From the NCBI RefSeq assembly GCF_001677475.2, contig NZ_CP015229.1: a stretch of 64,000 bases of DNA, one strand, 5' to 3'. Below, one piece after another: positions 3,493 to 55,258 of this stretch (position 1 is the first letter of the stretch; every line of letters starts with the position of its first letter). The position numbers were made by a program, and so were the translations under genes. The notes beneath the pieces were generated by a model. It had not been told where the DNA came from. It was given only the letters and a program-made list of their open reading frames with translations, and ran no database searches. This DNA comes from Escherichia coli. Its GTDB lineage: Bacteria; Pseudomonadota; Gammaproteobacteria; Enterobacterales; Enterobacteriaceae.

Positions 3493-5643
3493 TTAGTGGT
3501 GCGAAGAGATCTTCACGCCGCCTTCCGGGATTGGAACGTACGGCGTTTCTTTGTCAGTACGTTTGTCGCTGTTACGCACCTTCAGCCAGGTTTTGAAACC
3601 GTAGAAGATGATGCTGTACACCACAATCAGGAACAGAATACTCAGGCCTGCGTTGGTGTAGTTGTTCACAACGATGTGGTTCATGTTGGCAATCTGCTGC
3701 GCCGTCAGGTCAGTACCGTTAGCAATCTTCTCTTTGTACTGGCTTGCCATGTAGAAGAAGCCTTCCATCTGCGGGTTGGTGCTGAACAGTTTCAGACCCA
3801 GCGCCCAGGTGGTGCAGATAAGCAGCCATACCGCCGGAACAACAGTTACCCAGATGTATTGGGTGCGCTTCATCTTAATCAGCACAACGGTGCCCAGAAC
3901 CAGCGCTACGGCTGCCAGCATCTGGTTGGAGATACCGAACAGCGGCCACAGGCTCTTAACGCCGCCCAGCGGATCGACCACGCCCTGATACAGCAGGTAG
4001 CCCCACAGACCCACACAGCCCGCTGTACCGATGATACCGGCAACCAGAGAGTCGGTTTTTTTCAGGAACGGGATGAAGTTACCCAGCAGGTCTTGCAGCA
4101 TAAAGCGGCCAGAACGGGTACCGGCATCCAGCGCGGTCAGGATGAACAGGGCTTCGAACAGGATACCGAAGTGATACCAGAAGCCCATGTCAGCCATCGG
4201 CAGCACTTTGTGGAATACATGAGCGATACCTACCGCCAGCGTCGGCGCACCACCTGCACGGTTCAGGACAGAAGGCTCACCAATGTCTTTCGCGGTTTGC
4301 AGGATCTGCTCTGGCGAAATCACGAAGCCCCAGGAGCTGACAGTCGCCGCCGCGTGTGCGGTAACGTCTTTCAGCTGCGCCATGATGATTGGCGCGTTCT
4401 CGCCACCCATTTCATGCAGGTTAGGCATGGTGATGCCGAGGCCAGCAGGCGGGGTGTTCATCGCGAAGTAAAGACCCGGTTCGATGATGGACGCAGCAAC
4501 CAGCGCCATAATCGCCACGAAGGACTCCATCAGCATTGCGCCGTAGCCGATGAAACGCGCATCGGTTTCGTTAGCCAGCAGTTTCGGCGTCGTACCGGAA
4601 GAGATCAGCGCGTGGAAGCCAGATACCGCACCACAGGCGATGGTGATGAACAGGAACGGGAACAGAGCGCCTTTCCACAGCGGGCCAGTACCATCAATGT
4701 ACTGAGTCATCGCAGGCATTTTCAGTTCCGGGTTCAGCACCACGATACCCAGCGCCAGGCCGACGATAACGCCGATTTTCAGGAAGGTTGCCAGATAGTC
4801 GCGCGGTGCGAGGATCAGCCACACCGGCAGCAGTGCGGAAACAAACGCATAGCCAATCAGCGCGAAGGTAATGGTGGTGTCTTTAAAGGTCAGTGCCGGA
4901 CCCCAGTACGGATCGTGAGCAATCACGCCACCGAAGTAGATAGAGGCAACCAGCAGCACGATACCAATGACAGAGACTTCACCTACACGCCCCGGACGAA
5001 TAAAGCGCATGTAGATACCCATAAACAGCGCAATCGGTACGGTTGAGCAAACGGTGAAGACACCCCACGGACTTTCGGCCAGGGCTTTAACCACAATCAG
5101 CGCCAGGACGGCAAGGATGATGATCATGATTAAGAAACAGCCAAACAGCGCGATAGTCCCCGGTACTGGTCCCATCTCTTCTTTGATCATCTCACCGAGA
5201 GATGCGCCGTTACGGCGAGAGGAGATAAACAGCACCATAAAGTCCTGTACCGCACCGGCCAGCACTACCCCCGCCAGCAGCCACAGCGTGCCAGGCAGGT
5301 AGCCCATCTGCGCGGCGAGCACCGGACCAACCAGCGGACCGGCACCGGCGATAGCGGCGAAGTGGTGACCAAACAACACGTAACGGTTGGTCGGAACGTA
5401 GTTCAGACCGTCGTTGTTAATAACCGCAGGCGTCGCGCGCGTGGGGTCGAGTTTCATCACCTTCTGGGCGATGTACAGACTGTAGTAGCGATACGCCACC
5501 AGATACACCGACACAGAGGCGACCACGATCCACAGGGCGCTGACGTGCTCCCCCCGACGTAATGCAACTACCGCGAGGCAGAATGCACCGATGATTCCGA
5601 GAATCACCCAGGGTATGTGCTTGAATAGTTTTTTCGTATCCAT
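3493..5643 (-). CDS. btsT: Pyruvate/proton symporter BtsT (CstA family; YjiY)
   Basis: ORF track 3493..5658, 721 aa polytopic protein; start likely at [16 protein letters not shown]. Confidence 0.9.
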
Positions 5644-51081: not shown

Positions 51082-51294
51082 TCATGAAAGGTAAACATTG
51101 GCAGCTGAAGGGCCACGCAGAGCATTTATCCGGCAAAATTCCACGCGTAATCCGGTGGTAATTTCTTCTGCATCGCGGAGATTGAGCGCTGAAACATGAA
51201 GCTGGACATCGATACGACCATCGGATGGGGTGATAAGACCCTTGCCGCTTTTGCCGTCAAAGGTTTTGACAATTCCTGTCATTTTACGGGACAA
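51082..51294 (-). CDS. cspF: Cold-shock-domain protein, CspF/CspH-like
   Basis: ORF track 70 aa; [37 protein letters not shown]... Confidence 0.8.
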
Positions 51295-51594: not shown

Positions 51595-51810
51595 ATGTCA
51601 AATAAAATGACTGGTTTAGTAAAATGGTTTAACGCTGATAAAGGTTTTGGCTTTATTTCTCCTGTTGATGGTAGTAAAGATGTGTTTGTGCATTTTTCTG
51701 CGATTCAGAATGATAATTTTCGAACCTTATTTGAAGGTCAAAAGGTTACCTTCTCTGTAGAGAGTGGTGCTAAAGGTCCTGCAGCAGCAAATGTCATAAT
51801 TACTGATTAA
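51595..51810 (+). CDS. cspB: Cold-shock protein, CspB-like
   Basis: ORF track 71 aa; [38 protein letters not shown]; divergent from cspF as in Qin. Confidence 0.85.
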
Positions 51811-52093
51811 AATTAATAGTTTGTCTGTATACGATAACGAAGAAGGCTGATGCCTGAGTGGAGATACAGACAGAGTGGTGAATATTGGATCTCTTTAATA
51901 AATAGTAAGGAGATCCAATACATGAAACAATGGCCAGCATATTTGGCAATAACTTAATCAGGAAAAGTATGCTAACCATTGTGGTGAAGTGCAGGTTTGC
52001 TGCATGAATAGTTTTACAGCAGAAGCTAACTGCTAGCATAGCAAAACAAAGTGCGTAAGTGGATGACTCCCACAAAAAGCACCACAATATTAA

Positions 52094-52116
52094 ACCCGCT
52101 CAGGCGGGTTTTTTAT
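52094..52116 (+). terminator. Intrinsic terminator after cspB
   Basis: acccgc-tcag-gcgggt followed by TTTTTT. Confidence 0.7.
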
Positions 52117-52173: not shown

Positions 52174-52344
52174 TCAAGCTACAGCTTTAAGATTTGTCTG
52201 GAATACTTTGTTGCAATGAGGGCAGATCAAAAGAGCACCTTTTTGTACTCTTGAAAAACTGTGTTCTGACTCTTGGGTGCAGTTTGGGCAGGAACATTTA
52301 ACGAGATAATTACGGCGTGATTTTGAGTCTTTACGTTCTGACAT
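52174..52344 (-). CDS. Hypothetical small zinc-ribbon protein
   Basis: ORF track 52174..52395; CSCPNC...CPHC cysteine pairs; start uncertain. Confidence 0.3.
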   Translation of the reverse strand: MSERKDSKSRRNYLVKCSCPNCTQESEHSFSRVQKGALLICPHCNKVFQTNLKAVA

Positions 52345-52562
52345 AGGCTTTTCCTGTATAAATGGCCGTATACAGTACACTAAATATGAAAACATATCTC
52401 GTATTATTATTTAATATATGATTTTCTTTTAAAATAATTACCCACATTTTTAATGTGTCTGTTTTTTAGCGCCGTTGAGAACAACGTTTGCTATAAAAAC
52501 TAACCCATAGACTCCGATCTTTTCAAACATATTGCACCATCTGTGTACATCGGGGTGAGGAT

Positions 52563-52778
52563 ATGAAATCAATGGATAAGTTAACAACAGGTATCGCCTA
52601 TGGCACATCGGCTGGTAATGCTGGTTTCTGGGCATTGCAGTTACTCGATAAAGTAACTCCGTCACAGTGGGCTGCAATCGGTGTGCTGGGTAGTCTGGTT
52701 TTTGGCCTGCTGACATATCTGACAAACCTTTATTTCAAGATTAAAGAAGACAGGCGTAAGGTTGCGAGAAGAGAGTAA
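52563..52778 (+). CDS. Phage holin (phage 21 S-type pinholin, EssQ/EssD-like) with dual-start motif
   Basis: ORF track 71 aa; [66 protein letters not shown]. Confidence 0.85.
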
Positions 52779-52782
52779 TCCA

Positions 52783-53334
52783 ATGACTCAAGACTATGAA
52801 CTGGTTGTGAAAGGAGTTCGCAATTTTGAGAATAAAGTGGCGGTAACTGTAGCCTTACGGGACAAAAAACACTTTGACGGTGAAATTTTTGACCTGGACA
52901 TCTCGCTGGACCGTGTTGAAGGTGCCGCGCTGGAGTTTTATGAGGCAGCAGCCAGAAGGAGCATCAGACAGGTCTTCCTGGATGTTGCTGCCGGGTTATG
53001 TGAAGGGGATGAGCAGTCGCCGGAAAAGCGCCCCATAATTTTAGAGGCGCAGAATGTGTGGATAACCTACAAAGGAAAGCTACCGGGAAGAATTACTGGT
53101 TCTCTGAAGACGCCACCGACGGCATTGCGGTCAGAAAAAGATGATATTGAATCGCCCATTGAAAAACTGGAGGGCAGCGTCGCTGATCTGAATAAAAAAT
53201 TGTCGGTGCTGATTCCTTCTGAAGATGAAAAAAAACGCCGCGATGAGCAGTTTGCGGCGTTTTACGATTATTGCATTGAAGTTACTCGCAGGAATTTTGT
53301 GAAGATTTTTGAGGAGGGTAAATCTCTTCAGTAA
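52783..53334 (+). CDS. Hypothetical protein inserted between holin and endolysin (183 aa)
   Basis: ORF track 52762..53334; ATG at 52783 just after holin stop; no recognised domain. Confidence 0.45.
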   Translation: MTQDYELVVKGVRNFENKVAVTVALRDKKHFDGEIFDLDISLDRVEGAALEFYEAAARRSIRQVFLDVAAGLCEGDEQSPEKRPIILEAQNVWITYKGKLPGRITGSLKTPPTALRSEKDDIESPIEKLEGSVADLNKKLSVLIPSEDEKKRRDEQFAAFYDYCIEVTRRNFVKIFEEGKSLQ

Positions 53335-53542
53335 GCTTATTGGCGGACGCTGCAATTAATTCAGGAAGGTCCGCAAGGTCATCTGTCAGTGGATATGATG
53401 AAAAATCGGCGGCAGTTCTGTTAAGAAGCGCTTTAACTAATTCCTTTTCCTTCTCCGGCAACAAGTTGATTAGAGCTACGACTGCTTGCCTGAGTGCGAT
53501 TAAATCAGCAAAAGTTTGTTTTGGTAGATTTGTGTAATCCAT
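53282..53542 (-). CDS. Hypothetical acidic protein (86 aa), convergent with and overlapping the preceding gene
   Basis: ORF track; ATG at top with GAGG RBS; 3' end overlaps 3' end of 52783..53334 by ~50 nt. Confidence 0.4.
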   Translation of the reverse strand: MDYTNLPKQTFADLIALRQAVVALINLLPEKEKELVKALLNRTAADFSSYPLTDDLADLPELIAASANKLTEEIYPPQKSSQNSCE

Positions 53543-53655
53543 AGTCGCCTCGGTGTTTATCAGATTGACATCCTCCTCCCGCCAGTGCCCATCACTGGTG
53601 AGGTAAGATTTAACATATCCGGGGATTTGAAGCCGATAAATCCTGATAAATATCC

Positions 53656-54683
<1,028 letters not shown>

Positions 54684-55045
54684 ATTAATATTAAATCGGA
54701 TTATTTTTAGCGCTGAATGTGAAATTTAAATAAAAAGGACTCTTCCATGAGTCAAAATCCTTGAAATCTTAAGGGTAAGATAAAAGGTCATTAGACAGAA
54801 TGACACGTTTTATTAATAAATAAAGCTATTGTTTCATTCGTGTGTTTTTCTTTACAAAAGTAATCCTTGCTATGGTTGGTTAATCATGCGTTAATGGTGT
54901 TCTGGTTTGTTACAAAATTATCTGAAGCAGTCATTGTTATAATTTTATTATTTGTACCTCTTGAGATTTCCTTGTTGGTTTTTCTCTCTGATATTTTTTT
55001 CGGACCATTCTGCCCAAGGGCTAACTTCTTCAAAAGGTAATAATG

Positions 55046-55258
55046 ATGTCTAACAAAATGACTGGTTTAGTGAAATGGTTTAACCCTGAAAAAGGTTTTG
55101 GTTTCATCACGCCGAAAGATGGTAGCAAAGATGTGTTTGTCCATTTCTCAGCTATTCAGAGCAACGATTTCAAAACGTTAACTGAGAATCAGGAAGTCGA
55201 ATTTGGTATTGAGAACGGACCTAAAGGCCCCGCGGCTGTTCATGTTGTGGCACTTTGA
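55046..55258 (+). CDS. cspI: Cold-shock protein, CspI-like
   Basis: ORF track 55043..55258; [45 protein letters not shown]. Confidence 0.85.

What the first reader, a model, noticed from the sequence alone, without database searches (positions are those of the whole stretch)
52783..53542. Convergent, 3'-overlapping gene pair inserted between holin and endolysin
A 183-aa plus-strand gene and an 86-aa acidic minus-strand gene (good RBS) occupy the holin-endolysin interval and overlap at their 3' ends by ~50 nt. I recall a single short gene at this position in Qin-type cassettes. Neither protein has a recognisable domain; the convergent overlap suggests antisense coupling, possibly a toxin/antitoxin-like or defence module.
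Basis: partly seen in the sequence, partly recalled or inferred. Interest (0 to 1): 0.55.

Follow-up and report, generated by a model that had tools for sequence, protein, structure and literature searches.

The report
Antisense passenger gene in lysis cassette
A small uncharacterised prophage gene sits backwards between the holin and endolysin genes, with its likely terminator and its 3' end lying inside the neighbouring YdfR-family gene; it is one of at least six interchangeable passenger genes found at this spot, so the overlap looks like compact packaging of an accessory gene, not a toxin-antitoxin pair.

Summary
A 183-aa plus-strand ORF (52783-53334) and an 86-aa acidic minus-strand ORF (53282-53542) converge and overlap by exactly 53 nt between essQ (holin) and rrrQ (endolysin) of a Qin-type prophage.

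The 183-aa protein has a domain: DUF1327/YdfR (aa 1-112, E=5e-42), fused to a ~70-aa helical module I call P.

Both ORFs look coding. The 86-aa family ("A", phrog_2572) has three clades, 38-100% identical. A convergent P-type partner overlaps A by 53 or 59 nt in 67 of 69 loci, including loci where the pair sits after Rz and P is free-standing.

The overlap is not specific to this pair. The same ~85-nt upstream block (TTTATC-17 nt-TATGTT, then a stem-loop) precedes at least six unrelated small antisense ORFs at this site. Each is followed by a hairpin plus T-run inside the late YdfR-family ORF. Overlaps range from a 9-18 nt gap to 252 nt.

Best reading: an antisense moron slot, where the passenger is probably expressed in the lysogen and silenced by late read-through. 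Expression was not tested. No toxin-antitoxin, defence or lysis-accessory homology was found, and the protein's function is unknown. Interest is moderate.

The parts
52563..52778 (+). Class II holin essQ (context; upstream boundary of the interval).
   Evidence: 71-aa ORF; phrog_9876/phrog_20 holin; annotated essQ in CFT073 and others.
52783..53334 (+). Late-operon ORF of 183 aa: a YdfR-family protein, made of a DUF1327 domain fused in frame to the P module.
   Evidence: ORF; phrog_2091 full length, 8e-112; named 'YdfR family protein' in public records, on at least 1000 contigs. PGAP often truncates it to a pseudogene although the ORF is intact.
52783..53118 (+). DUF1327 / YdfR N-terminal domain (aa 1-112).
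   Evidence: Pfam PF07041, E=4.9e-42. 61 of the first 72 residues are identical to K-12 YdfR. For K-12 YdfR, residues 1-72 bind the RNase E catalytic half in BACTH and pull-down assays and co-purify RNA (PMC13232886). Nucleotide homology to short-ydfR phages stops at query nt 336.
53119..53334 (+). P module (about 70 aa, helical; core IEKLE..LNKKLS..EKKRRDEQFAAFYDYCIEVTRRNFVKIFEEGKSLQ). It contains the antisense gene's hairpin and the antisense gene's last 17 codons.
   Evidence: Occurs fused to DUF1327 (169-250 aa variants), free-standing after the holin (67 aa; L058/L061) and free-standing after Rz (73 aa; clade B). Codon-usage LLR +29.4 bits. pN/pS about 0.4-0.55. phrog_36381/15975. GC 0.417, against 0.491 for the DUF1327 part.
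53282..53542 (-). Gene A: 86-aa acidic protein predicted as three helices, of unknown function; the antisense passenger (moron).
   Evidence: ORF with GAGG SD; phrog_2572, 4e-53. Three clades, 38-100% identical. Frame tests. AF2: helices 8-26, 30-48 and 56-74, pLDDT 68.9. No Pfam, NCBIfam, PADLOC, PDB or BFVD relatives.
53282..53334 (.). 53-nt convergent 3' overlap. Codon position 3 of P lies opposite position 2 of A.
   Evidence: Coordinates. 53 nt in all 53 intact clade-A-type loci and 59 nt in all 14 clade B/C loci. P's third positions never change in the overlap in 7 pairwise comparisons.
53228..53263 (-). Terminator-like hairpin for gene A, inside the P coding sequence: AAAACGCCGC-n12-GCGGCGTTTT followed by TTTT (a run of 8 T), 19 nt after A's stop codon.
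   Evidence: Sequence. MFE -17 kcal/mol, z=-2.8, 0 of 200 shuffles fold as well. At the same relative place in clades A, B and C and behind the 210-aa cargo of L006. Decayed or deleted in P-X loci that have no antisense gene. Formal covariation is weak: one compensatory pair. The simple scan missed it because the loop is 12 nt.
53612..53653 (-). Conserved upstream block with a promoter-like arrangement: ATATTTATCAGGATTTATCGG, with -35-like TTTATC (53640-53635), a 17-nt spacer and -10-like TATGTT (53617-53612).
   Evidence: Nearly invariant in clades A, B and C, including clade B where no endolysin is adjacent. Shared by six different cargo types. The -10-like hexamer is replaced in empty slots. 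Only 3 of 6 bases match the -35 consensus and the consensus scan did not report it. Promoter activity is inferred, not shown.
53582..53598 (-). Leader stem-loop CCAGTG-ATGGG-CACTGG, about 14-30 nt after the -10-like hexamer; likely the 5' stem-loop of the A mRNA.
   Evidence: Sequence. Conserved in the A, 210-aa, 104-aa, 91-aa and 79-aa cargo leaders. The 90-aa cargo leader has a different stem-loop (CAGCCTG-n6-CAGGCTG) at the same position.
53340..53537 (+). 65-aa shadow ORF antisense to gene A (the wobble-sharing frame); judged not to be a gene.
   Evidence: Open in all clades, but codon-usage LLR is -19 to -37 bits and between-clade identity and BLOSUM score are lower than in the A frame. 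dN/dS alone did not discriminate the two frames.
53656..54189 (+). Endolysin rrrQ (context; downstream boundary). Its start codon abuts the conserved block.
   Evidence: 177-aa ORF; phrog_7 endolysin, 1.4e-62; annotated rrrQ.

Best explanation
The interval holds an antisense 'moron' nested in the 3' end of a late gene. I call the 86-aa gene A and the C-terminal module of the 183-aa ORF P.

Shown in the sequence. Gene A has its own transcription signals on the minus strand. A conserved promoter-like block (TTTATC-17 nt-TATGTT) lies next to the endolysin start. It is followed by a 5' stem-loop, a Shine-Dalgarno site, the ORF, and a GC hairpin with a run of 8 T. The hairpin and the last 17 codons of A lie inside the C-terminal P module of the late-operon YdfR-family ORF, which runs on until it meets a stop inside A. 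That produces the 53-nt convergent overlap. The same block and site carry at least six unrelated small passenger ORFs in related prophages, so this is a cargo slot and A is one passenger.

Inferred. In the lysogen the late operon is off and only A is transcribed. After induction, Q-antiterminated late transcription ignores the hairpin, reads through the whole A unit in antisense, makes YdfR-P, and shuts A off by promoter occlusion or collision and by RNA duplex formation. The two products therefore belong to opposite phases of the phage life cycle. A itself is a small soluble acidic three-helix protein that most likely acts by binding some host or phage protein for the benefit of the lysogen. 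Its target is unknown.
For: (1) Insertion relative to relatives. K-12 Qin has ydfR abutting rrrQ with an ATGA overlap and no slot. Homology with short-ydfR phages ends at aa 112. P+A has GC 0.41-0.42 against 0.49-0.52 for its flanks.

(2) Own signals. The upstream block is almost invariant across A clades that are only 38-55% identical as proteins, including clade B, which is not next to an endolysin. There is an SD before every start codon. The hairpin plus T8 folds at -17 kcal/mol, z=-2.8, and is at the same relative place in all clades.

(3) Cargo slot. The same block and leader precede ORFs of 86, 90, 91, 104, 79 and 210 aa. These are unrelated to one another in an all-against-all BLASTP, fall in five separate PHROG families (the 210-aa ORF has no PHROG hit), and have an SD and a fixed start offset. 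Each is followed by a hairpin plus T-run inside the late ORF.

(4) The signals track the cargo. Empty slots have CGGACAGGTT in place of GGATATGTT. P-X loci without an antisense gene have a mismatched or deleted hairpin, whereas L006, with a different antisense cargo, keeps it intact with T8.

(5) The overlap length depends on the cargo: a 9-18 nt gap, or 4, 35/48, 53/59, 68 or 252 nt. This fits a packaging by-product.

(6) Both ORFs look coding.

(7) From my own knowledge, not tested here: Q-modified RNA polymerase reads through intrinsic terminators; lambda bor is an oppositely oriented, lysogen-expressed gene beside the lysis genes; convergent promoters interfere with each other, as in phage 186 pR/pL.
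Against: No expression data were available, so the promoter, the terminator and the lysogen-only timing are all inferred. The -35-like hexamer matches the consensus at only 3 of 6 positions, and the consensus scan did not call the site. It could need an activator, or the block could be conserved for another reason; in clades A and C it also abuts the endolysin translation start.

Hairpin covariation is statistically weak: one compensatory pair, and 148 of 500 shuffles do as well. Its T-run is poor in clades B and C.

A is never found without P in 67 intact loci, even after relocation behind Rz. A pure passenger model explains this only through linkage to the embedded terminator.

Within clade A, dN/dS is no lower in the A frame than in the shadow frame.

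The function of A is not identified by any search.
Confidence: 0.6

Rival explanations
1. A and P are a dedicated two-protein module, such as effector plus neutraliser or something toxin/antitoxin-like. On this view A acts in the lysogen, and the late-made P (alone or fused to YdfR) binds or counteracts it so that the phage's own lytic cycle can proceed. The overlap keeps the two genes linked.
For: A always comes with a convergent P-type ORF, with a fixed 53- or 59-nt overlap, in 67 of 69 loci and three clades. The two exceptions are disrupted by IS3 or a frameshift. The pair moved as a unit to a second position after Rz, where P is a free-standing 73-aa gene whose start overlaps the Rz stop. 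P is under some purifying selection, pN/pS about 0.4-0.55, and is free-standing after the holin in L058/L061.
Against: P is not specific to A. It also occurs with a 210-aa antisense cargo (L006), and as the N-terminal part of P-X proteins with no antisense gene at all (L007, L008). P carries A's hairpin and 3' end, so co-inheritance is expected from linkage alone. AF2 of a paired P-linker-A alignment gave pLDDT 47.7 and pTM 0.30, lower than A alone. There is no homology to any toxin, antitoxin or PADLOC defence protein.
Confidence: 0.2
2. A is a lysis regulator or accessory protein of the cassette, for example an inhibitor of holin, endolysin or spanin that sets lysis timing or blocks lysis by related superinfecting phages. 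That would make it a routine part of the lysis machinery.
For: All three A clades, and every other cargo of the slot, sit inside lysis cassettes, either between holin and endolysin or directly after Rz. The phage PhiR63_1 (GenBank PV340573) carries the identical locus.
Against: A is on the opposite strand to the late operon, so it cannot be co-expressed with S, R and Rz from the late promoter. It has no transmembrane segment, signal sequence or lipobox. It has no PHROG 'lysis' category hit. Most Qin-type and lambdoid cassettes lack it: only 293 of 5426 genomes have it, and K-12 does not. Position in a cassette is also typical of unrelated morons such as lambda bor (own knowledge).
Confidence: 0.1
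3. Only one of the two overlapping ORFs is a real gene. Either the 86-aa ORF is a shadow of plus-strand coding sequence, or the C-terminal extension of the 183-aa ORF is meaningless read-through into an inverted insert.
For: The plus-strand shadow ORF opposite A is open in all clades and shares wobble positions with it. Within clade A the shadow frame has the lower dN/dS. PGAP truncates the 183-aa ORF to a 'pseudogene' at aa 112 in CFT073 and many other genomes. The late ORF's tail differs with every cargo type. The last 17 codons of P staying open is weak evidence, since (61/64)^18 is about 0.42 by chance.
Against: Codon usage clearly favours the A frame (+9.5 to +18 bits) over the shadow (-19 to -37) in all clades. 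Between-clade identity, BLOSUM score and the pos2 < pos1 pattern also favour A. A conserved start codon and SD are present. The P module has coding-like codon usage (+29.4 bits), exists as a free-standing gene with its own start in two contexts, and its length variants (169-250 aa) differ by whole codons. The very end of P (GKSLQ) may still be functionally unimportant.
Confidence: 0.08

Closest known systems
Lambda bor (and lom): lysogen-expressed morons in the late region (own knowledge; Barondess & Beckwith)
   Same: A small accessory gene next to the lysis genes, transcribed opposite to the late operon, presumably from its own promoter in the prophage, and dispensable for lytic growth. Clade B of gene A sits in exactly the bor position, directly after Rz.
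   Different: Bor is an outer-membrane lipoprotein of known function (serum resistance) and does not overlap a late gene. A is a cytoplasmic-looking acidic helical protein of unknown function. Its terminator and 3' end lie inside a late ORF. There is no sequence similarity.
Morons of HK97/HK022-type lambdoid phages (Juhala/Hendrix definition: extra gene with own promoter and terminator, different composition)
   Same: Present in some cassettes and absent in close relatives. Flanked by a promoter-like block and a hairpin with T-run. Lower GC than its neighbours.
   Different: Classical morons lie between genes and are usually co-oriented. Here the unit is inverted and nested in the 3' end of ydfR, and the promoter and leader are a fixed feature reused by at least six different cargo genes.
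K-12 Qin prophage YdfR (P76160; DUF1327)
   Same: The first 112 aa of the 183-aa ORF are a DUF1327 domain. Residues 1-72 are 85% identical to K-12 YdfR. The position between essQ and rrrQ is the same.
   Different: K-12 YdfR is 103 aa, ends at the rrrQ start, and has neither the P module nor an antisense gene. RNase E and RNA binding were shown only for the K-12 protein (PMC13232886).
Variable accessory/defence hot spots with conserved flanks in temperate phages (for example the P2 and P4 hot spots; own knowledge)
   Same: One fixed site, conserved flanking sequence, and mutually exclusive, unrelated cargo genes in otherwise related prophages.
   Different: None of the six cargo proteins matches a PADLOC model convincingly; the best is E=0.0048 for the 91-aa type. 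The cargos are single small proteins of 79-210 aa. The flank is a shared promoter and leader, not conserved neighbouring genes.
Type I toxin-antitoxin systems and phage antisense controls (hok/sok, lambda oop-cII, P22 sar-ant; own knowledge)
   Same: Convergent or overlapping transcription, so one transcript is antisense to the other.
   Different: There is no small hydrophobic toxin. Both overlapping partners are protein-coding. Rfam finds no known RNA. The antisense relation covers the whole A unit only when the late operon is read through, not through a dedicated small RNA.

Membership tests
YdfR / DUF1327 family (PF07041), for the 183-aa ORF | Significant match to the Pfam DUF1327 profile | tested here: met
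   aa 1-112 against model positions 1-92 of 93, i-E=4.9e-42, 142.5 bits; public name 'YdfR family protein'.
YdfR / DUF1327 family (PF07041), for the 183-aa ORF | Location between a class II holin and the endolysin of a lambdoid/Qin-type cassette | tested here: met
   essQ-ydfR-rrrQ order in the window, CFT073 and K-12.
YdfR / DUF1327 family (PF07041), for the 183-aa ORF | N-terminal about 72 residues bind the RNase E catalytic half / RNase G and co-purify RNA (shown for K-12 YdfR, PMC13232886) | not testable with these tools
   Only sequence identity could be checked: 61 of 72 identical; paper read.
Moron (autonomous accessory transcription unit in a prophage late region) | Present in some and absent in otherwise homologous phages | tested here: met
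   293 of 5426 complete E. coli genomes carry the module, whereas 5152 have the cassette. K-12 Qin lacks it.
Moron (autonomous accessory transcription unit in a prophage late region) | Own promoter | tested here: inconclusive
   A conserved TTTATC-17-TATGTT block is shared by six cargo types and changed in empty slots. It is weak by consensus, the scan did not call it, and there are no transcript data.
Moron (autonomous accessory transcription unit in a prophage late region) | Own factor-independent terminator | tested here: met
   10-bp stem with T8, -17 kcal/mol, z=-2.8. Analogous hairpins follow every cargo type. This is a sequence-level test only.
Moron (autonomous accessory transcription unit in a prophage late region) | Base composition different from neighbouring genes | tested here: met
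   GC 0.414 (A) and 0.417 (P), against 0.491 (DUF1327 part) and 0.517 (lysozyme). The difference is modest.
Moron (autonomous accessory transcription unit in a prophage late region) | Expressed from the repressed prophage | not testable with these tools
   No expression data are accessible. A literature search found nothing on this gene.
Type I toxin-antitoxin | Small hydrophobic membrane toxin plus a dedicated antisense RNA | tested here: not met
   A has GRAVY -0.20, pI 4.57 and three amphipathic helices. The P module is predicted helical, with GRAVY -0.47 for the whole 183-aa protein. Rfam finds no RNA family.
Type II toxin-antitoxin | Co-directional two-gene operon, with toxin and antitoxin domains of known families | tested here: not met
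   The genes are convergent. Neither A nor the P module has a Pfam, NCBIfam or PADLOC hit.
Known anti-phage defence systems (PADLOC-DB 2.0) | Match to a defence-protein HMM | tested here: not met
   0 families for A, the 183-aa ORF, clade B/C homologues and free-standing P. This does not exclude an undescribed defence function.
Lysis accessory proteins (antiholin, spanins, lysis regulators) | Encoded on the late strand, with a membrane or lipoprotein signal, or homology to a lysis PHROG | tested here: not met
   A is on the opposite strand and has no TM segment or lipobox. Its PHROG hits are all 'unknown function'.
Anti-CRISPR AcrIIC4 (a lead from the PDB sequence search) | Significant sequence or fold similarity | tested here: not met
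   Profile against PDB gave E=0.12, not significant. Foldseek against PDB did not return it; the best match had E=2.9.

The most novel reading that the evidence does not exclude
The holin-endolysin interval of Qin-type prophages is a dedicated phase-switch slot. A fixed promoter and 5' stem-loop leader drives interchangeable small lysogen-phase effector proteins (A and at least five others), for example exclusion, anti-lysis or defence factors. The late YdfR-family protein has an N-domain that binds RNase E and RNA, and it is translated from the very transcript that is antisense to the cargo mRNA. On this reading it actively clears or neutralises the cargo (mRNA or protein, the latter through the P module) when the prophage switches to lysis. 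The conserved 3' overlap would then be functional coupling, not packaging.
Probability: 0.12. Interest if true: 0.7.

Novelty: new member of a known kind. Interest (0 to 1): 0.4.

Why it matters
It turns an odd-looking overlapping gene pair into a testable picture: a reusable antisense expression slot inside the lysis cassette of very common E. coli prophages. The cassette is in about 95% of complete genomes and this cargo in about 5%. At least six orphan small-protein families use the slot, and none has a known function.

Slots of this kind are where lysogen-benefit genes tend to sit, such as serum resistance, exclusion and defence genes. The cargo set is therefore a short, well-defined candidate list.

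The work also flags a recurrent annotation problem. PGAP marks intact YdfR-P ORFs as pseudogenes and sometimes omits the antisense gene.

It further places the recently reported RNase E-binding YdfR domain next to a natural sense/antisense RNA pair, which may help in finding YdfR's function.

Tried and rejected
(1) Function by homology. Pfam, NCBIfam, PADLOC and PHROGs were tried for A, P, the clade B/C homologues and the other cargos. Only 'unknown function' PHROGs came back.

(2) PDB sequence search. Nothing was significant. AcrIIC4 at E=0.12 was kept as a lead and not confirmed by fold.

(3) AF2 of A, followed by Foldseek against PDB and BFVD. No match with E below 0.6. The three-helix model has only moderate confidence, pLDDT 68.9.

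(4) AF2 of a P-(GGGGS)5-A fusion with a paired 14-row alignment, to look for a complex. pLDDT 47.7 and pTM 0.30. This is uninformative, not negative.

(5) dN/dS to decide between the A frame and its wobble-sharing shadow. The result was inconsistent between close and distant comparisons. It was replaced by codon-usage and amino-acid conservation tests.

(6) Covariation test of the hairpin. One compensatory pair only, not significant.

(7) Consensus promoter/terminator scan. It missed both proposed signals, because the -35 is weak and the loop is 12 nt.

(8) Rfam. No family matched.

(9) Scan of 100,044 species-representative genomes for A. No relatives were found. Clade B is absent from complete E. 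coli genomes and its host is unknown.

(10) A 975-aa TPR/CHAT protein (P0020) hit A in 8 stretches. I judged this a compositional or helical-repeat resemblance.

(11) The 'DUF1823' label on A in the PhiR5_1/PhiR12 records. It is not supported (E=0.18).

(12) Possible remote homology between A and the 79-aa and 104-aa cargos through a shared L-L-P-(E/Q)-x-E-K-like turn. hhalign gave E=0.065 and 0.57, so this is unproven.

(13) Literature. Nothing was found on the 86-aa protein, its accessions or this slot.
Full report
THE OBSERVATION

The window between 52563 and 54683 is the lysis cassette of a Qin-type lambdoid prophage: essQ (class II holin, 52563-52778), two convergent ORFs, rrrQ (endolysin, 53656-54189) and rzpQ. 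The plus-strand ORF runs from the ATG at 52783 to the stop at 53334 (183 aa). The minus-strand ORF runs from the ATG at 53542 to the stop at 53282 (86 aa, pI 4.57), with GAGG 5 nt before the ATG. The two overlap by exactly 53 nt.

The locus is 100% identical in E. coli A22/A32 and in phage PhiR63_1, and 99.2% identical in CFT073, S88 and APEC O1. The full module is present in 293 of 5426 complete E. coli genomes. Both proteins are in public databases on at least 1000 contigs, as 'YdfR family protein' and 'hypothetical protein'.

ARE BOTH ORFS GENES?

The 183-aa protein is not domain-less. Residues 1-112 are a DUF1327/YdfR domain (Pfam E=4.9e-42), and 61 of the first 72 residues are identical to K-12 YdfR. 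The remaining ~70 residues, which I call P, are a separate module. Nucleotide homology with short-ydfR phages stops at aa 112, and PHROG hits split in the same way. P also occurs as a free-standing gene, of 67 aa after the holin in L058/L061 and 73 aa after Rz in clade B loci. P has coding-like codon usage (+29.4 bits) and pN/pS of about 0.4-0.55.

The 86-aa ORF, which I call A, has an open wobble-sharing shadow ORF on the plus strand (53340-53537), so the coding strand had to be tested.
- dN/dS did not discriminate.
- Codon usage did: +9.5 to +18 bits for the A frame in all clades, against -19 to -37 for the shadow. This is comparable to the holin control.
- Between-clade identity and BLOSUM score are highest in the A frame, and A shows pos2 < pos1 < pos3 substitutions.
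- A start codon preceded by an SD is conserved.

I take both as real genes. The last few codons of P may be unimportant.

RELATIVES AND THE CONSERVED OVERLAP

An exhaustive search of 1.84 billion representatives found only a narrow family. With IMG/VR loci it resolves into three clades: A (86 aa), B (93 aa, 49-61% identical) and C (89-93 aa, 38-41% identical).

In 67 of 69 loci a convergent P-type ORF overlaps A's 3' end by exactly 53 nt (clade A) or 59 nt (clades B and C). The two exceptions are an IS3 insertion and a frameshift. In clade C, P is fused to other YdfR variants (174-250 aa). In clade B the pair lies directly after Rz, in the position of lambda bor, with P free-standing and its start overlapping the Rz stop. 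Within the overlap, P's third codon positions face A's second positions and never vary.

SIGNALS AROUND A

The terminator-like hairpin:
- Nineteen nt after A's stop, inside P's conserved KKRRDEQFAAF segment, the minus strand forms AAAACGCCGC-n12-GCGGCGTTTT followed by TTTT, a run of 8 T (53228-53263). It folds at -17 kcal/mol, z=-2.8.
- A hairpin is at the same relative place in clades B and C. In clade C it carries a compensatory G-C to A-U change that also changes P's residues (R to H and A to V).
- This single covariation is not statistically significant, and the T-run is poor in clades B and C.

The promoter-like block and leader:
- Upstream of A, the block ATATTTATCAGG(A/C)TTTATC, then 17 nt, then TATGTT/TATTGT is almost invariant in all three clades, including clade B, which has no adjacent endolysin.
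- It reads as a weak -35 (TTTATC) and a -10 (TATGTT). It is followed 14-30 nt later by a stem-loop, CCAGTG-n5-CACTGG.
- The consensus scan did not call either signal, so both remain inferences.

THE SITE IS A CARGO SLOT

Other variants of the interval changed the interpretation.
- In O157-type loci (L007, L008), P continues on the plus strand into a 120-aa domain X (186 or 297 aa, phrog_1085). There is no antisense gene, and the hairpin is mismatched or half deleted.
- In L006 a different antisense ORF (about 210 aa) uses the same ~85 nt of upstream block and leader and the same intact hairpin with T8. It overlaps the YdfR-P ORF by 252 nt.
- L072 and L073 carry further antisense ORFs (104 aa and 79 aa) behind the same block.

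A scan of IMG/VR for the 21-nt block returned more than 120 stretches, of which 80 were read. At least six unrelated cargo families follow the block: 90 aa (the commonest), 104, 91, 86 (this one), 210 and 79 aa. All have an SD and fixed start offsets. All are soluble with pI 4.5-6.2 where computed (the 210-aa ORF was not analysed), and all are of unknown function.

Each cargo is followed by a GC hairpin plus T-run inside the late ORF. The overlap with that ORF is cargo-specific: a 9-18 nt gap, or 4, 35/48, 53, 68 or 252 nt. The 90-aa cargo has a different leader stem-loop at the same position. Empty slots have CGGACAGGTT in place of GGATATGTT, and deletion derivatives and IS insertions occur. 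P+A has lower GC (0.41-0.42) than its flanks (0.49-0.52).

MECHANISM

Shown by sequence: A is an inverted accessory unit whose 3' end and hairpin lie within the late YdfR-P ORF, and it is one of several alternative passengers of a conserved slot.

Inferred from established lambdoid biology (own knowledge):
- In the lysogen only A is transcribed.
- After induction, Q-modified polymerase ignores the hairpin, transcribes the whole A unit in antisense and makes YdfR-P.
- A is then silenced through promoter occlusion or collision and through RNA duplexes.

The 53-nt overlap is then mainly a consequence of nesting. The late ORF simply runs on until its first stop inside A.

What A does is unknown. 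AF2 gives three helices at moderate confidence (pLDDT 68.9), with no structural or sequence relatives. I favour a small binding or inhibitor protein that benefits the lysogen.

RIVALS

A dedicated A-P protein pair stays possible, because A is never found without P and the two relocated together. Against it, P also occurs with other partners, P necessarily carries A's terminator, and the AF2 fusion test gave nothing. A routine lysis-accessory role is unlikely given the strand, the lack of membrane signals and the patchy distribution. 'Only one ORF is real' is disfavoured by the codon-usage and conservation tests. No toxin-antitoxin or PADLOC defence membership test was met.

RELATED KNOWLEDGE

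K-12 YdfR residues 1-72 were recently reported to bind the RNase E catalytic half and RNase G, and to co-purify RNA (PMC13232886). An RNase E/RNA-binding domain is thus encoded on the transcript that is antisense to the cargo. That is suggestive, but it was not tested here, and K-12 itself has no cargo.

VERDICT

This is a new, uncharacterised member (and a small family of fellow passengers) of a known kind of element, the prophage moron or accessory-gene hot spot, with an unusually compact nested antisense layout. Interest is moderate, at 0.4.

Noticed in passing
window 53612-53653 (minus strand); loci L075-L154: The 21-nt block next to the endolysin start precedes at least six unrelated small antisense ORFs in related prophages: 90, 104, 91, 86, 210 and 79 aa, belonging to phrog_2411, 1853, 18136, 2572 and 21218 (the 210-aa ORF has no PHROG hit). 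The 90-aa type is the commonest. None has a known function.
   Followed up: partly
window 53633-53653 (minus strand): The block contains two ATTTATC heptamers spaced 10 bp apart (ATTTATCAGGATTTATC). This could be a binding site for a regulator.
   Followed up: no
L007 1658-2551 and L008 1947-2507 (O157:H7 TR01 and AR_0067): The P module also occurs as the N-terminal part of longer late proteins, carrying a 120-aa C-terminal domain X (phrog_1085/26186, function unknown). These loci have no antisense gene, and the hairpin has decayed.
   Followed up: partly
L001 (CFT073) 4221-4556; also L005, L006, L007, L009, L010, L072: PGAP annotates the intact YdfR-P ORF as a pseudogene ('missing C-terminus') and keeps the antisense gene. 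In A22/A32 and in the PhiR63_1 record the 86-aa gene is not annotated at all. The 210-aa antisense ORF of L006 is also unannotated there.
   Followed up: yes
L005 (strain 08_3449) 745-1958; hits H13 and H18: IS3-family insertions interrupt the antisense gene or slot in several genomes. L104 has an IS directly after GGATATG.
   Followed up: no
window 54337-54633 (+), inside rzpQ 54186-54683: A 98-aa ORF embedded in the +1 frame of rzpQ has a lipobox-like LTSC and a proline-rich tail. It is the embedded o-spanin RzoQ, as annotated in K-12.
   Followed up: no
window 51082-51294 (-), 51595-51810 (+), 55043-55258 (+), 52174-52395 (-): Three cold-shock-protein paralogues (cspF-, cspB- and cspI-like) and a ynfU-like zinc-ribbon ORF flank the lysis cassette, as in Qin and CFT073. 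They are further accessory genes in the same late region.
   Followed up: no
window 52092-52111 (+): A strong terminator-like hairpin, AAACCCGC-TCAG-GCGGGTTT followed by a T-run, lies between the cspB-like and ynfU-like genes and may act in both directions. Two Rfam sRNA models hit here weakly (E about 0.5, far below gathering score).
   Followed up: no
L011-L013, L062-L065, L071: The clade B pair sits after Rz/DUF2514, roughly 400 nt from an oppositely oriented DUF1441 gene (L011, L012). It is absent from all 5426 complete E. coli genomes and from 100,044 species-representative genomes, so its host is unknown.
   Followed up: partly
protein P0020 (975 aa): A eukaryote-like TPR/CHAT repeat protein matched the 86-aa protein in 8 stretches (E=4e-10). 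The shared pattern is DLAEAISAxQKAVxLTPE against FADLIALRQAVVALINLLPE. I judged this a helical-repeat resemblance and not homology.
   Followed up: no
L125 (IMGVR_UViG_2802429235_000006): A further cargo (MNNKDNLRREFLQVMNEN...AEPYGKLS), distantly like the 104-aa type, sits behind the same heptamer block but with a different -10 region and leader.
   Followed up: no
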